Sequence record: PZ019085.1
DNA: 64,000 nt
Origin: a phage
Direction: 5' to 3' (one strand)
Shown: piece by piece, positions 28,857 to 31,549 of the stretch
How positions within the stretch are numbered: position 1 is the stretch's first letter
How the letters are laid out: each line of letters starts with the position of its first letter
Notes under the pieces: generated by a model
What the model was told of the DNA's origin: nothing
Seen by the model: the letters and a program-made list of their open reading frames with translations, nothing else
Database searches by the model: none
Translations under genes and position numbers: made by a program

Positions 28857-29437
28857 TGAAAGCTAGCACATACCTTCAGATTGCATATCTGATTTCTCAA
28901 GAATCAAAATGTTGTTCATGGAAAGTTGGTGCCGTCATTGAAAAAGATGGACGCATTATCTCTACTGGATATAATGGCTCACCAGCAGGTGGCGTTAACT
29001 GTTGTGAACATGCATCAGAAAATGGTTGGTTGAAGAATAAACCAAGCCCGGTCATAGTTGCTGGACATAAAGAAGGCACTACAGCATTTGGACGGGTGGA
29101 TAATTTTGTTTTGGCTAAAGAACATCGGGCTGCTCATAGTGCATGGTCTGCTAATAATGAAATCCATGCAGAATTGAATGCAATTTTGTTTGCAGCTCGT
29201 AAAGGTAATTCTATTGAAGGTGCTACGTTATATACGACGCTTTCTCCATGTCCTGATTGCACTAAAGCTATTACACAGTCAGGTATTAAAAAGGTTGTAT
29301 ACGCAGAATTATATGACCGATCTCCTGAAAATTGGGCAGACATTCTTAAACAAGCTGGTATTGAAGTAATTCAGTACTCTCGTAATAATCTTCGTTCTCT
29401 GAATTGGGAACAAATTCGAAACTTTTGTGGTGAATAA
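28856..29437 (+). CDS. cd: dCMP deaminase
   Basis: 193 aa; cytidine/dCMP deaminase zinc motifs HAELNAI and SPCPDC. Confidence 0.9.
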   Translation: MKASTYLQIAYLISQESKCCSWKVGAVIEKDGRIISTGYNGSPAGGVNCCEHASENGWLKNKPSPVIVAGHKEGTTAFGRVDNFVLAKEHRAAHSAWSANNEIHAELNAILFAARKGNSIEGATLYTTLSPCPDCTKAITQSGIKKVVYAELYDRSPENWADILKQAGIEVIQYSRNNLRSLNWEQIRNFCGE

Positions 29438-29438
29438 T

Positions 29439-29735
29439 ATGATTTTAACTGAACAAGAAACTATGGTTCTTCGTGAACGTATTAAAACTATTCTGTCTGT
29501 AGGCGTTCATTGTGTTGTATTTGAAAAGGCTAACGGTGATGTTCGTACGATGTTTGCTTCGCGCGATGAACTTGAAGTCAAATACGAAAATAACAATCCA
29601 GCAACAGAAGTTCGTTATGAACCTCGTGAATCAGTTCGAGCATTCGATACCAAGTTAGGTCAGTGGCGTTCTTTCCGCCTTGATAAAGTAATTTCGGTTG
29701 ATGGTACTCCGGTAGAACGTTTGCTTCTTATGTAA
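29439..29735 (+). CDS. hypothetical protein (98 aa; track start 29427)
   Basis: ATG at 29439 directly after the cd stop. Confidence 0.45.
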   Translation: MILTEQETMVLRERIKTILSVGVHCVVFEKANGDVRTMFASRDELEVKYENNNPATEVRYEPRESVRAFDTKLGQWRSFRLDKVISVDGTPVERLLLM

Positions 29736-29792: not shown

Positions 29793-30125
29793 ATGTCTGA
29801 AGTACAACTCCCAATTCGTGCTGTTGGTGAATATGTCATTCTGGTTTCTGAACCCGCTCAAGCAGGTGATGAAGAAGTTACAGAATCAGGACTTGTGATT
29901 GGTAAACGTGTTCAAGGTGAAGTTCCTGAACTATGTGTAGTTCATTCTGTAGGTCCTGATGTTCCTAAAGGTTTTGTTGAAGTCGGTGATTTGACTCCAC
30001 TACCAGTTGGACAAATTCGAAATGTTCCACATCCATTTGTGGCTTTAGGTCTTAAACAACCTAAAGAAATTAAACAGAAATTCGTAACATGCCACTATAA
30101 AGCTATTCCGTGTCTTTATAAGTGA
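29793..30125 (+). CDS. 31: gp31 co-chaperonin (GroES-like)
   Basis: 110 aa; [34 protein letters not shown]... matches T4 gp31. Confidence 0.9.
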
Positions 30126-30133
30126 TATAAATA
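30126..30133 (+). promoter_or_regulatory. putative late promoter between gene 31 and rIII
   Basis: TATAAATA directly after the gene 31 stop. Confidence 0.35.
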
Positions 30134-30249
30134 ACTATATGAAGAGAACACTCTTCTAAGCGGTAGCCTACAACTGAGAGACTTGTCGAAAGAAGGTGAA
30201 ATTCAGAAGAACGTGGCTACTAAATATTATCTCGAATTGAGAATTTAAA

Positions 30250-30498
30250 ATGACTAAACAATTACAACACGCTCTTGAACTGCAACGCCATGCATGGAAT
30301 AATGGCCATGACAATTACGGCGCATCTATTGATGTTGAAGCCGAAGCTCTTGAAATCTTACAGTATTTCAAACATCTGAATCCAGCACAAGCCGATCTTC
30401 GCGATATCCTGGTCCAGAAAGATGAATTGAAATATGCTAAGCCTCTGGCTTCTGCAGCACGTAAAGCAGTTCGTCATTTTGTTATTACGCTGAAGTAA
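30250..30498 (+). CDS. rIII: rIII-like lysis inhibition accessory protein
   Basis: 82 aa as T4 rIII; position between gene 31 and gene 30. Confidence 0.55.
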   Translation: MTKQLQHALELQRHAWNNGHDNYGASIDVEAEALEILQYFKHLNPAQADLRDILVQKDELKYAKPLASAARKAVRHFVITLK

Positions 30499-30870
30499 GT
30501 TAAATCGAGGAGCCGTCGAATTGTCTGATTATCGATTTGCGAATCGATATGTTTTAGAAGTACCGCCCCGACAATTTTACGGTGTACCTCTTGAATGTGG
30601 TTCTTATAGCGGTAAGTGCATGCTACCCCGAGGTGATGGCCAATCGGGAGTACGCCTCAAGGCCTATATATCCATCAGTATATATATCTTATCCTCGAGA
30701 AATCGGACCCGGAACCTTTAAGCTAACGGTGTGCAACAGATAAGAGCTATAAGGTATGATGACTGGTTTATGGTTATCCTGTCGTTAAATATCCAAAACC
30801 TATGTTCCCCTTGAGGGCTTGAGCAGGCAATGTCAATAAGTCCTGCATTTTCATTTAAAGAGAATTTATA

Positions 30871-31050
30871 ATGGCAAAACAAGCTAAAGCAAAGAAAGCA
30901 GTCGAAAAGAAAGTTGATGGTACCTCTAAACGCGCTGGATACAAGCGTGGGTCGAACTCTCGTATTAATCAAACAGTTGAGAAGATCATGCGCAGAGCAC
31001 GTGCAGTTCTTCGAGATGATGCTTCTCGTTTTGGAAAGGTTGTTGCATAA
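30871..31050 (+). CDS. small Lys/Arg-rich protein (59 aa)
   Basis: ATG at 30871, TAA at 31048-31050, T4-like codon usage, followed by a UUCG hairpin terminator; below the track length cut-off. Confidence 0.45.
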   Translation: MAKQAKAKKAVEKKVDGTSKRAGYKRGSNSRINQTVEKIMRRARAVLRDDASRFGKVVA

Positions 31051-31055
31051 TTTTA

Positions 31056-31078
31056 GGGAGACTTCGGTCTCCCTTTTG
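31056..31078 (+). terminator. intrinsic terminator after ORF 30871-31050
   Basis: GGGAGAC-UUCG-GUCUCCC followed by TTTTG. Confidence 0.7.
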
Positions 31079-31109
31079 TGCGTTTAGGGCAGAAAAAGTT
31101 TAAAAAGAT

Positions 31110-31138
31110 GTTTACTCTCCTGTAGGATGTGTTACTAT
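31110..31138 (+). promoter_or_regulatory. early promoter cassette
   Basis: GTTTAC 31110-31115, 17-bp spacer, TACTAT 31133-31138. Confidence 0.55.
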
Positions 31139-31180
31139 AGACTTGTACCATCTAATCAATAAAACAACCTGGAGAACAAA

Positions 31181-31549
31181 ATGAAAATCAATCTGAACTC
31201 ATACATCAAATGTAAAGACCACGATGGTTATAAAGCTATCGAAATTAAAGAATTCCAGTGGATGTTATACAAAGAGCAATTTGAGTTCGTAGGTTGTATG
31301 ACCCCTGAAGGTCCTTCTGATGATTTCTCTTGGAAAATTGTGTTAGCAAACTTTTTCACAGGTGACACATACGAATTAAAAACTATTATTACCGGTAAAA
31401 TTCGTTCAGAAACATATGTTGACGAAGAAACTGGTTACTCTGAAGATGTTACATGGTATCAAAATGGACGCATTACAGCAGATAACCTGATAGAAAAAAT
31501 GAAAGCCAAAGGTGTTTTAAATTTAGACAATTGGATTAAAGTTGCATAA
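31181..31549 (+). CDS. hypothetical early protein (122 aa)
   Basis: ORF with own early promoter (31110-31138) and SD GGAGAA. Confidence 0.55.
   Translation: MKINLNSYIKCKDHDGYKAIEIKEFQWMLYKEQFEFVGCMTPEGPSDDFSWKIVLANFFTGDTYELKTIITGKIRSETYVDEETGYSEDVTWYQNGRITADNLIEKMKAKGVLNLDNWIKVA

What the first reader, a model, noticed from the sequence alone, without database searches (positions are those of the whole stretch)
30499..30870. About 370 bp GC-richer stretch without a convincing ORF between rIII and a small basic-protein gene
Most intergenic gaps in this window are under 120 bp; here about 370 bp has no ATG-initiated ORF of 60 aa or more on either strand. The only plus-strand frame (30521-30721) starts at TTG and is rich in codons rare elsewhere in the window (CGA, CGG, CCG, CCC). 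By eye the region is more GC-rich than its surroundings and contains several potential stems: TATCGATT/AATCGATA (30530-30549), CCCGA/TCGGG (30627-30648), an AT palindrome around 30665-30684, and a long-range complement GCCTCAAGG (30655-30663) / CCTTGAGG (30809-30816). Candidates are a structured non-coding RNA, a long regulatory leader for the downstream small gene, or recently acquired foreign DNA.
Basis: seen in the sequence. Interest (0 to 1): 0.55.

Follow-up and report, generated by a model that had tools for sequence, protein, structure and literature searches.

The report
Conserved structured RNA after phage rIII
The gene-free 370 bp between the lysis-inhibition gene rIII and gene 30.9 of this T4-like phage is neither junk nor a missed gene: its centre encodes a ~150-nt RNA with an elaborate, evolutionarily conserved fold that matches no catalogued RNA family and has no known function.

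Summary
The window is a Mosigvirus (RB69-like T4-type phage), and the gap lies between rIII and gp30.9.

The gap is a chain of separate RNA hairpin modules. The central one, "B" (30603-30753, + strand), is a self-contained ~150-nt RNA with:
- a closing stem;
- a perfect four-way junction;
- a 6-bp kissing loop between two adjacent arms;
- a GNRA hairpin;
- invariant unpaired segments.

In 26 distinct sequences from at least 8 phage genera, 98.3% of pair cells are paired. 26 of 49 pairs show compensatory changes, against 3-8 in slid controls. There are 61 G·U cells and 2 A·C cells, which fixes the + strand.

B is not coding and has no Rfam or tRNA match. It is absent from bacterial genomes, E. 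coli genomes and plasmids. It occurs once per genome, always between rIII and 30.9, in 416 phage records. It is missing from T4 and RB69. It is more conserved than the genes flanking it.

Function is unknown. I infer an autonomous factor- or ligand-binding RNA domain carried on the rIII-30.9 transcript. The "foreign DNA" and "protein gene" readings are rejected.

The parts
30250..30498 (+). rIII gene (lysis-inhibition accessory protein). Upstream context; element B is co-oriented and lacks a promoter of its own.
   Evidence: phrog_1457, E = 8e-42. Annotated as rIII in relatives. T4-type late promoter TATAAATA at 30126-30133.
30507..30590 (+). Module A: a long irregular hairpin.
   Evidence: RNAalifold on 17 sequences: 25 pairs, 5 with compensatory changes. 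Present in T4, Dhakavirus, Mosigvirus and, by transfer, phi92.
30603..30753 (+). Element B: a self-contained structured RNA of about 150 nt.
- P1 30603-10 / 30746-53
- P2 30611-13 / 30662-64
- P3 30622-31 / 30644-55
- P3b 30632-33 / 30640-41
- P4 30665-71 / 30678-86
- P5 30687-93 / 30739-45
- P6 30695-98 / 30703-06
- P7 30707-11 / 30727-32
P1, P2, P4 and P5 meet in a four-way junction with no unpaired bases.
   Evidence: 26 distinct sequences: 98.3% of 1271 cells paired, 26 of 49 pairs compensatory, slid controls 3-8. Mutual information recovers the same pairs independently. 61 G·U against 2 A·C cells. The covariance model finds exactly one copy in the window, 169 bits. Coordinates.
30634..30639 (+). 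5' half of the kissing loop (UGAUGG), which is the whole 6-nt loop of P3b.
   Evidence: Pairs with 30672-30677. All 6 pairs are formed in 26 of 26 sequences, and 3 pairs covary (CG17/UA9; GC20/AU3/UA3; GC23/AU3).
30672..30677 (+). 3' half of the kissing loop (CCAUCA), which is the loop of P4.
30699..30702 (+). GAAA tetraloop capping P6. In relatives it is GNRA in 24 of 26 sequences (21 GAAA, 3 GUAA, 1 GGAA... the two exceptions are UAAA and UAAU; read from the alignment, approximate split).
   Evidence: Alignment. P6 has 3 of 4 pairs covarying.
30712..30738 (+). Nearly invariant unpaired segments of the P5/P6/P7 domain: the P7 loop GAACCUUUAAGCUAA and the joiner GCAACA, together with the P7 3' strand. 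With AAGUGCAUG (30614-30622) and CUCAAG (30656-30661) these are the candidate functional core.
   Evidence: Invariant and nearly invariant columns of alignment A2. The segment CTAACGGTGTGCAACAGAT is identical in every sequence retrieved with it. The one divergent copy found through the 5' block (Cronus) differs there by one base.
30755..30800 (+). Module C1: conserved GUAUGAUG, a hairpin at 30761-30783, and the conserved tail CGUUAAAUAUCCAAAACC.
   Evidence: 16 distinct sequences: two stem pairs covary strongly (UA8/AU7/GC1; CG10/GC4/UA2). Its position relative to B differs between genera.
30807..30821 (+). Module C2: a small G+C hairpin CCCC-UUGA-GGG followed by CUUG.
   Evidence: Present in all relatives with compensatory variants (CCCUUAGGGG, CCUCUUAGAGGG, GCCUUCGAGGC). 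It lies upstream of B in KMB17 and L018.
30823..30856 (+). Module C3: hairpin GCAGG-N14-CCUGC followed by AUUUUCAUUU, just before the 30.9 ribosome-binding site (AAAGAGA, 30857-30863).
   Evidence: Other genera have unrelated hairpins at this position (GGGAGC..GCUCCC 'D motif', GGUGGA..UCCACC, GAGAGGU..ACCUCUC). It is not scored as a terminator.
30871..31050 (+). gp30.9 homologue: a 59-aa basic protein of unknown function. Downstream context.
   Evidence: phrog_1427, E = 2e-31. Annotated gp30.9 in RB69. No Pfam or PDB relative. Followed by the hairpin GGGAGACUUCGGUCUCCCUUUU at 31055-31075.

Best explanation
SHOWN. Window 30603-30753 (+ strand) encodes a discrete, phage-specific RNA of about 150 nt with a conserved, compact architecture.
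- A closing helix P1 leads into a four-way junction with no unpaired bases.
- Two adjacent arms (P2-P3 and P4) are tied together by a 6-bp loop-loop (kissing) helix.
- The fourth arm (P5) opens into a three-way junction carrying a GNRA-capped hairpin (P6) and a helix (P7) with a large, nearly invariant loop.
- Stems covary freely while about 45 unpaired nucleotides are invariant.

B lies in a mosaic of smaller, independently folding hairpin modules (A, C1, C2, C3). Together these fill the rIII-30.9 intercistronic space, and their order is shuffled between genera.

INFERRED.
- B has no promoter or terminator of its own, so it is transcribed as part of the rIII-to-30.9 message. That message starts at the late promoter at 30126 and at upstream promoters.
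- B keeps its integrity whatever lies next to it, and its conservation pattern is that of aptamers and ribozymes. It therefore most likely works as an autonomous folded domain that binds a specific partner, a protein or a small ligand. It may stay in the mRNA or be trimmed out as a stable RNA.
- It probably does not act by antisense pairing, nor through a classical P1-switching expression platform.
- It is an accessory function. T4 and RB69 do without it, and many relatives carry a different ~50-nt cassette at exactly the same site.
For: Structure: 98.3% of 1271 pair cells are standard pairs. 26 of 49 pairs have compensatory changes, against 3-8 when partners are slid by 1-3 columns, and 0 of 500 shuffles reach the observed covariation score. 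Every helix, including the kissing loop, has at least one covarying pair. An unsupervised mutual-information scan returns only pairs of this structure, apart from one phylogenetic echo.

Strand: 61 G·U against 2 A·C cells; 98.3% paired on + against 93.6% on -.

Not coding: every homologue has at least one stop in all six frames. Variable columns fall 25/23/28 by codon phase. Lengths are 148, 151, 152, 153 and 160 nt. The gap ORFs match no PHROG family.

Discreteness: the flanks outside P1 are unrelated between genera. B abuts A and C1 here, W and C2 in Klebsiella phages, C2 and C1 in Karamvirus, and the rIII stop codon in Moon-like phages.

Constraint: B is 85-93% identical between this phage and Klebsiella, Karamvirus, Serratia and Kosakonia phages, where gp31 is 67-81% and rIII is 75-80%.

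Distribution:
- 416 phage records, 396 of them covering at least 80% of the query.
- 15 metagenomic copies, all on T4-like contigs.
- One copy per genome and always after rIII: 19 of 45 rIII loci.
- No copy in 185,579 species genomes, 5,426 E. coli genomes or PLSDB plasmids.

No own signals: no sigma-70-like promoter or terminator-like site in the gap. The late promoter TATAAATA lies at 30126.

Accessory nature: absent from T4, RB69 and HX01, and replaced by cassette Y at the same junction.
Against: No transcript, processing or binding data exist, so function is inferred from anatomy alone.

B is always found between the same two genes. That fits a cis-acting role tied to rIII or 30.9 at least as well as an autonomous one.

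No partner has been identified. gp30.9 and RIII are nearly identical in phages with and without B, which gives no sign of co-evolution with either.

Thermodynamic stability is no better than shuffled sequence (z = -0.61).

The sequences are related, and most of the diversity comes from about 8 lineages. Individual covarying pairs therefore rest on few independent events.

The kissing loop could be intermolecular; covariation cannot tell.

A large automated screen of phage structured RNAs (PMC10690425) may already list this motif. Its tables were not available to me.
Confidence: 0.62

Rival explanations
1. Classical riboswitch. B is a metabolite-sensing aptamer in the 5' leader of gene 30.9, and it switches a downstream terminator or ribosome-binding-site helix.
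For: The conservation pattern is riboswitch-like: a variable, covarying P1 around an invariant multi-helix core with a kissing loop. B is always upstream of 30.9 and co-oriented with it. A hairpin followed by a U-rich tract (C3) and ribosome-binding-site-proximal hairpins sit before the 30.9 start.
Against: There is no conserved expression platform. Between 0 and about 150 nt of unrelated, shuffled modules separate the P1 3' strand from the 30.9 start, and in some genera C1 or C2 lies upstream of B instead. I found no conserved alternative pairing for the P1 strands by inspection. No terminator-like site is present. 30.9 is expressed from B-less leaders in T4 and RB69. No Rfam riboswitch matches, even at E = 10.
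Confidence: 0.15
2. Self-cleaving ribozyme or dedicated RNA-processing element that separates the rIII and 30.9 cistrons or generates defined RNA ends.
For: Invariant unpaired nucleotides lie around junctions. A perfectly paired four-way junction with interacting adjacent arms recalls, from memory, the natural hairpin ribozyme and twister-sister. The element sits in an intercistronic position in a phage known for extensive mRNA processing.
Against: No match to hammerhead, twister, twister-sister, hatchet, pistol, HDV-like, hairpin or glmS models. No conserved nucleotide lies at the P1 boundaries where cleavage sites of known classes sit. Single copy.
Confidence: 0.07
3. Passive structural spacer. 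This would be an mRNA-stabilising or insulating hairpin cluster (REP-like) or a transcription terminator or attenuator for rIII, with no specific partner.
For: The whole gap is a string of hairpins that are swapped and lost between relatives. One GenBank record annotates part of B as a rho-independent terminator. B is dispensable in T4 and RB69.
Against: A passive stabiliser does not need about 45 invariant unpaired bases, a covarying kissing loop, or nucleotide conservation above that of neighbouring genes. No U-tract follows any B helix, and the scan finds no terminator.
Confidence: 0.08
4. Recently acquired foreign or mobile DNA: a miniature mobile element, or a fragment captured from a host.
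For: GC is higher than the surroundings. Presence and absence vary among close relatives. P1 looks like terminal inverted repeats. A T4-type fragment of this intergenic region, without B, has moved into the unrelated phage phi92.
Against: B has one copy per genome, always at the rIII-30.9 locus, in at least 8 genera. Its divergence roughly follows that of the flanks. It has no homologue in bacteria, E. coli or plasmids. The 'inverted repeats' covary rather than being conserved, as expected for an RNA helix and not for a transposase site. G·U asymmetry points to RNA.
Confidence: 0.03
5. A small protein gene. Candidates are the TTG or GTG frames, or the 'hypothetical proteins' annotated over B in some GenBank records.
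For: ORFs of 53-66 aa exist in the window. NHEP29 and Klebsiella phage Roth21 carry CDS annotations over this stretch.
Against: Every homologue has stops in all six frames. Indels are of 1, 2, 3 and 9 nt, and a 2-nt indel separates the window from its 98.6% relative. There is no third-position periodicity. No PHROG family matches. Rare codons make up 13.6% of the frame.
Confidence: 0.01

Closest known systems
Multi-helix riboswitch aptamers with loop-loop contacts (purine, lysine, cobalamin, SAM-I classes). Compared from memory of their published architectures.
   Same: A closing P1 that covaries freely. A multi-way junction. Distal loops of neighbouring arms joined by Watson-Crick kissing pairs. 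Invariant junction and loop nucleotides. Size 70-200 nt. Location upstream of a co-oriented gene.
   Different: No sequence or structure match to any Rfam riboswitch. No expression platform. Variable modules lie between it and the downstream gene. It also sits in the 3' region of rIII. No ligand is known.
T4 small stable RNAs rnaC and rnaD (species 1 and 2 RNAs)
   Same: T4-family encoded RNAs of about 120-140 nt and unknown function, made by processing of longer transcripts.
   Different: They lie in the tRNA cluster and end in a tRNA-like T-arm. The B covariance model does not match them: best hits in the region are 8 bits or less. B is absent from T4 itself.
phi29 pRNA and the phage-associated ornate RNAs ROOL and GOLLD (PMC12286853)
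   Same: Phage-borne, elaborately folded RNAs in which loop-loop (kissing) pairs are central. In those cases the kissing pairs are intermolecular and build multimers, which covariation cannot exclude for B.
   Different: No homology. pRNA belongs to phi29-like podoviruses and the packaging motor. ROOL and GOLLD are 500-800 nt and lie near tRNAs in prophages. B is about 150 nt, confined to enterobacterial T4-like phages, and fixed between rIII and 30.9.
Mobile regulatory cassettes of T4-type phages (promoter-early stem-loops, 'PeSL'; Arbiol et al. 2010, recalled from memory)
   Same: Short non-coding modules in the plastic regions of T4-type genomes that are shuffled, swapped and lost by recombination. 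The modules A, B/Y, C1, C2 and C3/D behave this way.
   Different: PeSLs are a terminator hairpin plus an early promoter; a likely example lies at 31052-31150. B has neither, is three times longer, and has a complex tertiary-type fold.
HK022 put RNA and other cis-acting RNA domains that act on the transcribing or translating machinery
   Same: A phage-encoded folded RNA domain inside an operon transcript that acts without an adjacent switch helix.
   Different: This is only a functional analogy. There is no sequence or structure similarity, and no evidence for read-through control here.

Membership tests
Any Rfam 15 family (4227 covariance models) | Score at or above the family's gathering threshold, or at least a suggestive E-value | tested here: not met
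   No gathering-level hit in the 64-kb window. At E <= 10 on 30100-31200 there was nothing inside the gap. On 30595-30762 alone there were only three chance-level hits of 9-13 bits against thresholds of 37-60 bits.
tRNA / tmRNA / tRNA-like gene | Cloverleaf with D-loop/T-loop elbow and anticodon arm, detected by ARAGORN | tested here: not met
   ARAGORN finds no gene in the window. In B the interacting loops belong to adjacent arms and there is no T-loop consensus.
Conserved structured RNA (generic) | Base pairs maintained by compensatory substitutions beyond phylogenetic background, with strand asymmetry of G·U | tested here: met
   26 of 49 pairs are compensatory against 3-8 in slid controls, with 98.3% of cells paired. 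The mutual-information scan concurs. 61 G·U against 2 A·C cells.
Riboswitch | Conserved aptamer with variable P1 located in the 5' leader of the regulated gene | tested here: met
   The aptamer-like conservation pattern is present and B lies upstream of co-oriented gp30.9 in all 26 sequences.
Riboswitch | Expression platform (terminator/antiterminator or RBS-sequestering helix) overlapping the aptamer's 3' part and conserved with it | tested here: not met
   The sequences 3' of P1 are unrelated between genera (C1, C2, Z, or the cassette at the rIII stop). There is no terminator-like site.
Riboswitch | Specific ligand binding that changes structure or expression | not testable with these tools
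   Needs in-line probing, ITC or reporter assays.
Self-cleaving ribozyme (known classes) | Match to the class consensus core, and site-specific self-scission | tested here: not met
   No Rfam ribozyme model matches. Catalysis itself is not testable here.
Protein-coding gene | An open frame conserved in homologues, indels in multiples of three, third-position bias, protein homologues | tested here: not met
   Stops in all six frames of every homologue. Lengths of 148, 151, 152, 153 and 160 nt. Variable columns 25/23/28 by phase. No PHROG hit.
Intrinsic terminator / sigma-70 or T4 late promoter | G+C hairpin followed by a U-tract; -35/-10 hexamers; or TATAAATA | tested here: not met
   No terminator-like and no promoter-like site within 30499-30870. 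The nearest TATAAATA is at 30126.
T4 rnaC / rnaD stable RNAs | Homology in sequence or structure to T4 species 1 or 2 RNAs; location in the tRNA cluster | tested here: not met
   The covariance model R1, run with filters off over the T4 tRNA/rnaC/rnaD region, gives best hits of 8.2 bits or less and none on rnaC or rnaD. B is not in a tRNA cluster.
Mobile element / horizontally acquired island | Multiple copies or variable insertion sites; homologues in other replicon types; conserved terminal repeats | tested here: not met
   Single copy at one locus. No hits in bacterial, E. coli or plasmid collections. The terminal helix covaries.

The most novel reading that the evidence does not exclude
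B may be the founding member of a new functional RNA class specific to T-even-type phages. It would be a compact aptamer or catalytic RNA made during infection. It would capture a host or phage factor, for example an immune signalling nucleotide, ribosomal protein S1 or RegB (RIII, encoded just upstream, binds S1; PMC9409239), or a defence-system sensor. Alternatively it could self-assemble through its kissing loops. Either way it would be an RNA-based accessory or counter-defence function rather than a conventional cis-regulator. This would explain its autonomy from neighbouring modules, its extreme core conservation, and its patchy presence among close relatives.
Probability: 0.15. Interest if true: 0.9.

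Novelty: new variant of a known kind. Interest (0 to 1): 0.68.

Why it matters
T4-type phages are among the best-studied genomes in biology. Even so, this element has gone unnoticed. The two laboratory references, T4 and RB69, happen to lack it. Annotation pipelines cover it with spurious "hypothetical proteins" or a "terminator".

Its fold is as elaborate as that of riboswitch aptamers and small ribozymes: eight helices including a kissing loop, a perfect four-way junction and about 45 invariant unpaired bases. It is more conserved than the adjacent proteins. It occurs in hundreds of phages of Klebsiella, Enterobacter, Escherichia, Yersinia, Serratia, Citrobacter, Erwinia and Kosakonia, many of which are therapeutic candidates.

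That makes it a well-defined orphan RNA whose partner and role can be tested directly. Natural knock-outs and cassette swaps already exist. It also shows that the rIII-30.9 spacer is a recombining array of RNA modules, which is a tractable system for studying how phages evolve non-coding functions.

Tried and rejected
1. Rfam was run at gathering thresholds and at E <= 10, on the whole window, on a 1.1-kb slice and on B alone. Nothing relevant was found.
2. ARAGORN found nothing.
3. MFE against shuffles was uninformative: z = -0.61, -1.19 and +0.09.
5. RNAalifold's small 35-40 pair inside the P3 loop was replaced by the kissing helix, which covaries and is 100% paired.
6. I looked for a further pseudoknot among the invariant loops (UGCA/UGCA; AAGG/CCUU). 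There is no covariation, some variants are uncompensated, and the mutual-information scan finds nothing more.
7. Homology with T4 rnaC and rnaD: none.
8. Host mimicry: no similarity to E. coli genomes or plasmids.
9. Antisense targets of the invariant loops within the window: only chance matches of 10 nt or less.
10. An own promoter: none is conserved. In Moon-like phages B starts 9 nt after the rIII stop.
11. A uORF reading of module C1 (AUGAUG...UAA) fails: the peptides differ in length and sequence between genera.
12. A degenerate 5'-block search of IMG/VR returned mostly chance hits and added only Erwinia phage Cronus.
13. The metagenome scan added no new clade.
14. Eight literature searches found no description of the element (one search failed on a term-length error). 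The supplement of the one large phage-RNA screen is not held.
15. Pfam and PDB searches of gp30.9 found no clue to an RNA-binding partner.
Full report
**Context**

The window is from a Mosigvirus (RB69-like T4-type phage). The 1.1 kb around the finding is 98.6% identical to Escherichia phage NHEP29, and relatives are classified as Straboviridae, Tevenvirinae, Mosigvirus. On the + strand the order is cd, 31.1, gp31, rIII (30250-30498), the gap, a 59-aa basic protein (30871-31050), then gp30.8. The 59-aa protein is the gp30.9 homologue: phrog_1427, and annotated gp30.9 in RB69. A T4-type late promoter TATAAATA lies at 30126-30133, upstream of rIII.

**Checking the observation**

- The 372-bp stretch is the largest ORF-free interval of the 64-kb window. 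The median gap is 54.5 bp and the next internal one is 197 bp.
- It contains only TTG- or GTG-initiated frames.
- GC is 42.2% against 37.9% for the window, the 92nd percentile of 372-bp windows.
- The TTG frame is 13.6% CGA/CGG/CCG/CCC against 1.2% in long ORFs.
- Folding energy is no better than shuffled sequence: z = -0.61 for the core and +0.09 for the whole gap. Stability alone would not have flagged the region.

**What relatives show**

Parts of the gap occur in 996 phage records, but in pieces. Aligning the rIII-30.9 interval from several genera shows a mosaic of short modules:
- A (30507-30590)
- B (30603-30753)
- C1 (30755-30800)
- C2 (30807-30821)
- C3 (30823-30856)

Module order differs between genera:
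- A-B-C1-C2-C3 in this window.
- C1-B-C2-D in Klebsiella phages.
- C2-B-C1 in Karamvirus.
- B directly after the rIII stop in Moon-like phages.

T4 has A-C1-C2-C3 without B. RB69, HX01 and many others carry a different ~50-nt cassette (Y) at exactly the B site. Distant T4-likes have the 30.9 homologue 8 nt after rIII, with no modules at all.

**Element B**

BLAST with B alone finds 416 phage records, 396 of them covering at least 80% of the query. Hosts are Klebsiella, Escherichia, Shigella, Enterobacter, Yersinia, Citrobacter, Serratia, Salmonella, Raoultella, Kosakonia and Erwinia.

A 19-nt invariant block has no match in one genome for each of 185,579 bacterial and archaeal species. B has no match in 5,426 complete E. 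coli genomes and only chance fragments in plasmids. A metagenome scan followed by a covariance-model search gave 15 full-length copies, all on T4-like contigs. Of 45 rIII-containing IMG/VR loci, 19 carry B, always once and always just downstream of rIII.

B is 85-93% identical between this phage and Klebsiella, Karamvirus, Serratia and Kosakonia phages. Over the same comparisons gp31 is 67-81% and rIII is 75-80%. The pattern is vertical descent under strong constraint, with repeated loss or cassette replacement. It is not a recent import.

**Structure**

RNAalifold on 27 sequences predicted seven helices, and 21 of 43 pairs showed compensatory changes. I noticed that the 6-nt loop of P3b (UGAUGG, 30634-39) is complementary to the loop of P4 (CCAUCA, 30672-77), and that the two change together in other genera (UAUGG/CCAUA; CAAUGA/UCAUUG).

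Counting pairs on the full structure with this kissing helix, over 26 distinct sequences:
- 98.3% of 1271 cells are paired.
- 26 of 49 pairs have changes on both sides (115 cells).
- Covariation score is 0.306. Slid controls give 3-8 pairs and scores of 0.06 or less, and 0 of 500 shuffles reach the observed score.
- Every helix has covarying pairs.
- The kissing helix is paired in all 26 sequences, with three covarying positions.

An unsupervised mutual-information scan returned only pairs of this structure among its top Watson-Crick-compatible column pairs, including two kissing pairs. G·U cells outnumber A·C cells 61 to 2, so the folded strand is the + strand, the same as the genes.

The architecture is as follows:
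- P1 is 8 bp in the window.
- P1 leads into a four-way junction with no unpaired bases, joining P1, P2, P4 and P5.
- P2 continues through an internal loop (AAGUGCAU / CUCAAG) into P3 and P3b.
- P3b kisses P4.
- P5 opens into a three-way junction with P6 and P7. P6 carries a GNRA loop, usually GAAA. P7 carries a 15-nt, nearly invariant loop, GAACCUUUAAGCUAA, and is followed by GCAACA.

The consensus fold is close to the MFE fold of the window sequence.

**What B is not**

- Not coding. Every homologue has stops in all six frames, there is no codon periodicity, and there are non-triplet indels, including a 2-nt difference from the 98.6% relative. No PHROG family matches.
- Not a tRNA or tmRNA.
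- Not any Rfam family.
- Not related to T4 rnaC or rnaD.
- Not a terminator or promoter, although one GenBank record labels part of it a terminator and others lay hypothetical CDSs over it.
- Not a mimic of host sequence.
- Its invariant loops have no convincing antisense target in the window.

**The other modules**

- A is a long hairpin. 5 of 25 pairs are compensatory among 17 rather similar sequences.
- C1 is a short hairpin with two strongly covarying pairs, flanked by conserved GUAUGAUG and CGUUAAAUAUCCRAAACC.
- C2 is a small G+C hairpin followed by CUUG, and it varies by compensation.
- C3 is replaced in other genera by unrelated hairpins.
It is not maintained in relatives.

**How it most likely works**

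The following is shown:
- B is a discrete, conserved, + strand RNA structure.
- It is co-oriented with rIII and 30.9 and has no signals of its own.
- It is dispensable in some lineages.

The rest is inferred. B is carried on the rIII-to-30.9 transcript and acts as an autonomous folded domain that binds a specific partner, either a protein or a small molecule. The reasons are:
- Its conservation pattern is that of aptamers and ribozymes, with free covariation in stems and invariance in loops and junctions.
- It tolerates any neighbour, which argues against a classical switch helix.
- Its patchy presence among close relatives is typical of accessory functions.

A classical riboswitch for 30.9 is the main rival (0.15). 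It fails on the missing, non-conserved expression platform. A new self-cleaving ribozyme (0.07) and a passive stabiliser or spacer (0.08) are less likely. Foreign DNA (0.03) and a protein gene (0.01) are essentially excluded.

One contextual lead is worth noting. RIII, encoded immediately upstream, binds ribosomal protein S1 and blocks S1-dependent activation of the RegB endoribonuclease (PMC9409239). An RNA partner in that circuit is conceivable but untested.

**Novelty**

I found no description in Rfam 15 or in eight full-text searches. I rate B as a new family within the known kind "complex-folded regulatory or functional RNA". Its context is unusual: it is a swappable cassette in an array of RNA modules. 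Interest is 0.68.

Noticed in passing
window 30162-30221 (+), between gp31 and rIII: There is a second conserved RNA hairpin, the 'D motif': GGUAGCC-UACAAC-CUGAG...inner hairpin...UUCAG-AAGAACGU-GGCUAC. In T4 and Mosigvirus it precedes rIII. In Klebsiella, Citrobacter, Kosakonia and Erwinia phages a homologous copy instead precedes gene 30.9. 5 of 17 pairs are compensatory in 8 sequences, and the internal-loop strands UACAAC and AAGAACGUG are invariant. No Rfam match.
   Followed up: partly
L090 (phi92, FR775895.2) about 1474-1805: The unrelated phage phi92 (Stephanstirmvirinae) carries a T4-type fragment of about 330 bp inside its tRNA gene array, between tRNA-Gly and tRNA-Gln. The fragment is circularly permuted: the post-rIII spacer (X-A-C1-C2-C3, up to the ATGG of 30.9) is joined to the last ~90 nt of rIII, and the whole is bounded by a TTTATT repeat. 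This suggests capture of a circular or tandem intermediate. It is annotated there as a 'putative rIII' protein.
   Followed up: partly
L003 (HX01) about 1999-2044; L091, L093, L100-L102, L111; RB69 L137 6344-6606: Many B-less relatives carry an alternative ~50-nt cassette 'Y' (CUAUCACGCGUCAGAAAAAGGUUAUCUGUCUAAGUCGUGG) at exactly the B site, between modules A and C1. In other genera a Y-like unit with an outer stem GGCUCUA/UAGAGCU sits near the 30.9 start. It looks like another hairpin module. Covariation was not quantified.
   Followed up: no
window 31052-31150 (+): A terminator-like hairpin GGGAGACUUCGGUCUCCCUUUU is followed by a T4-type early promoter (GTTTAC-N17-TACTAT). This looks like a PeSL-type regulatory cassette between 30.9 and 30.8. 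Similar features are annotated in phage SA21RB.
   Followed up: no
window 29427-29735 (+), gp31.1 homologue: It matches Pfam WYL_2 (Sm-like SH3 beta-barrel), E = 3.7e-9. Some GenBank records label it 'tail fibers protein', which looks like a propagated mis-annotation.
   Followed up: no
window 30871-31050 and relatives: Several GenBank records annotate the 59-aa gp30.9 homologue as '1,4-alpha-glucan (glycogen) branching enzyme, GH-13-type'. That is implausible for a 59-aa basic protein. T4's own 30.9 annotation starts at an upstream ATG inside module C3 (73 aa), whereas the conserved start is the downstream ATG.
   Followed up: partly
upstream of window 28856 (relatives L001-L003, 1-257): Relatives annotate a phospho-2-dehydro-3-deoxyheptonate aldolase (DAHP synthase) gene immediately upstream of cd. 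This is an unusual auxiliary metabolic gene for a T4-type coliphage.
   Followed up: no
whole window: TATAAATA (the T4 late promoter core) occurs 19 times against 7.5 expected (0 of 100 shuffles reach 19). Most copies from 40 kb onward are on the - strand, consistent with a late-gene block transcribed in the opposite direction.
   Followed up: no
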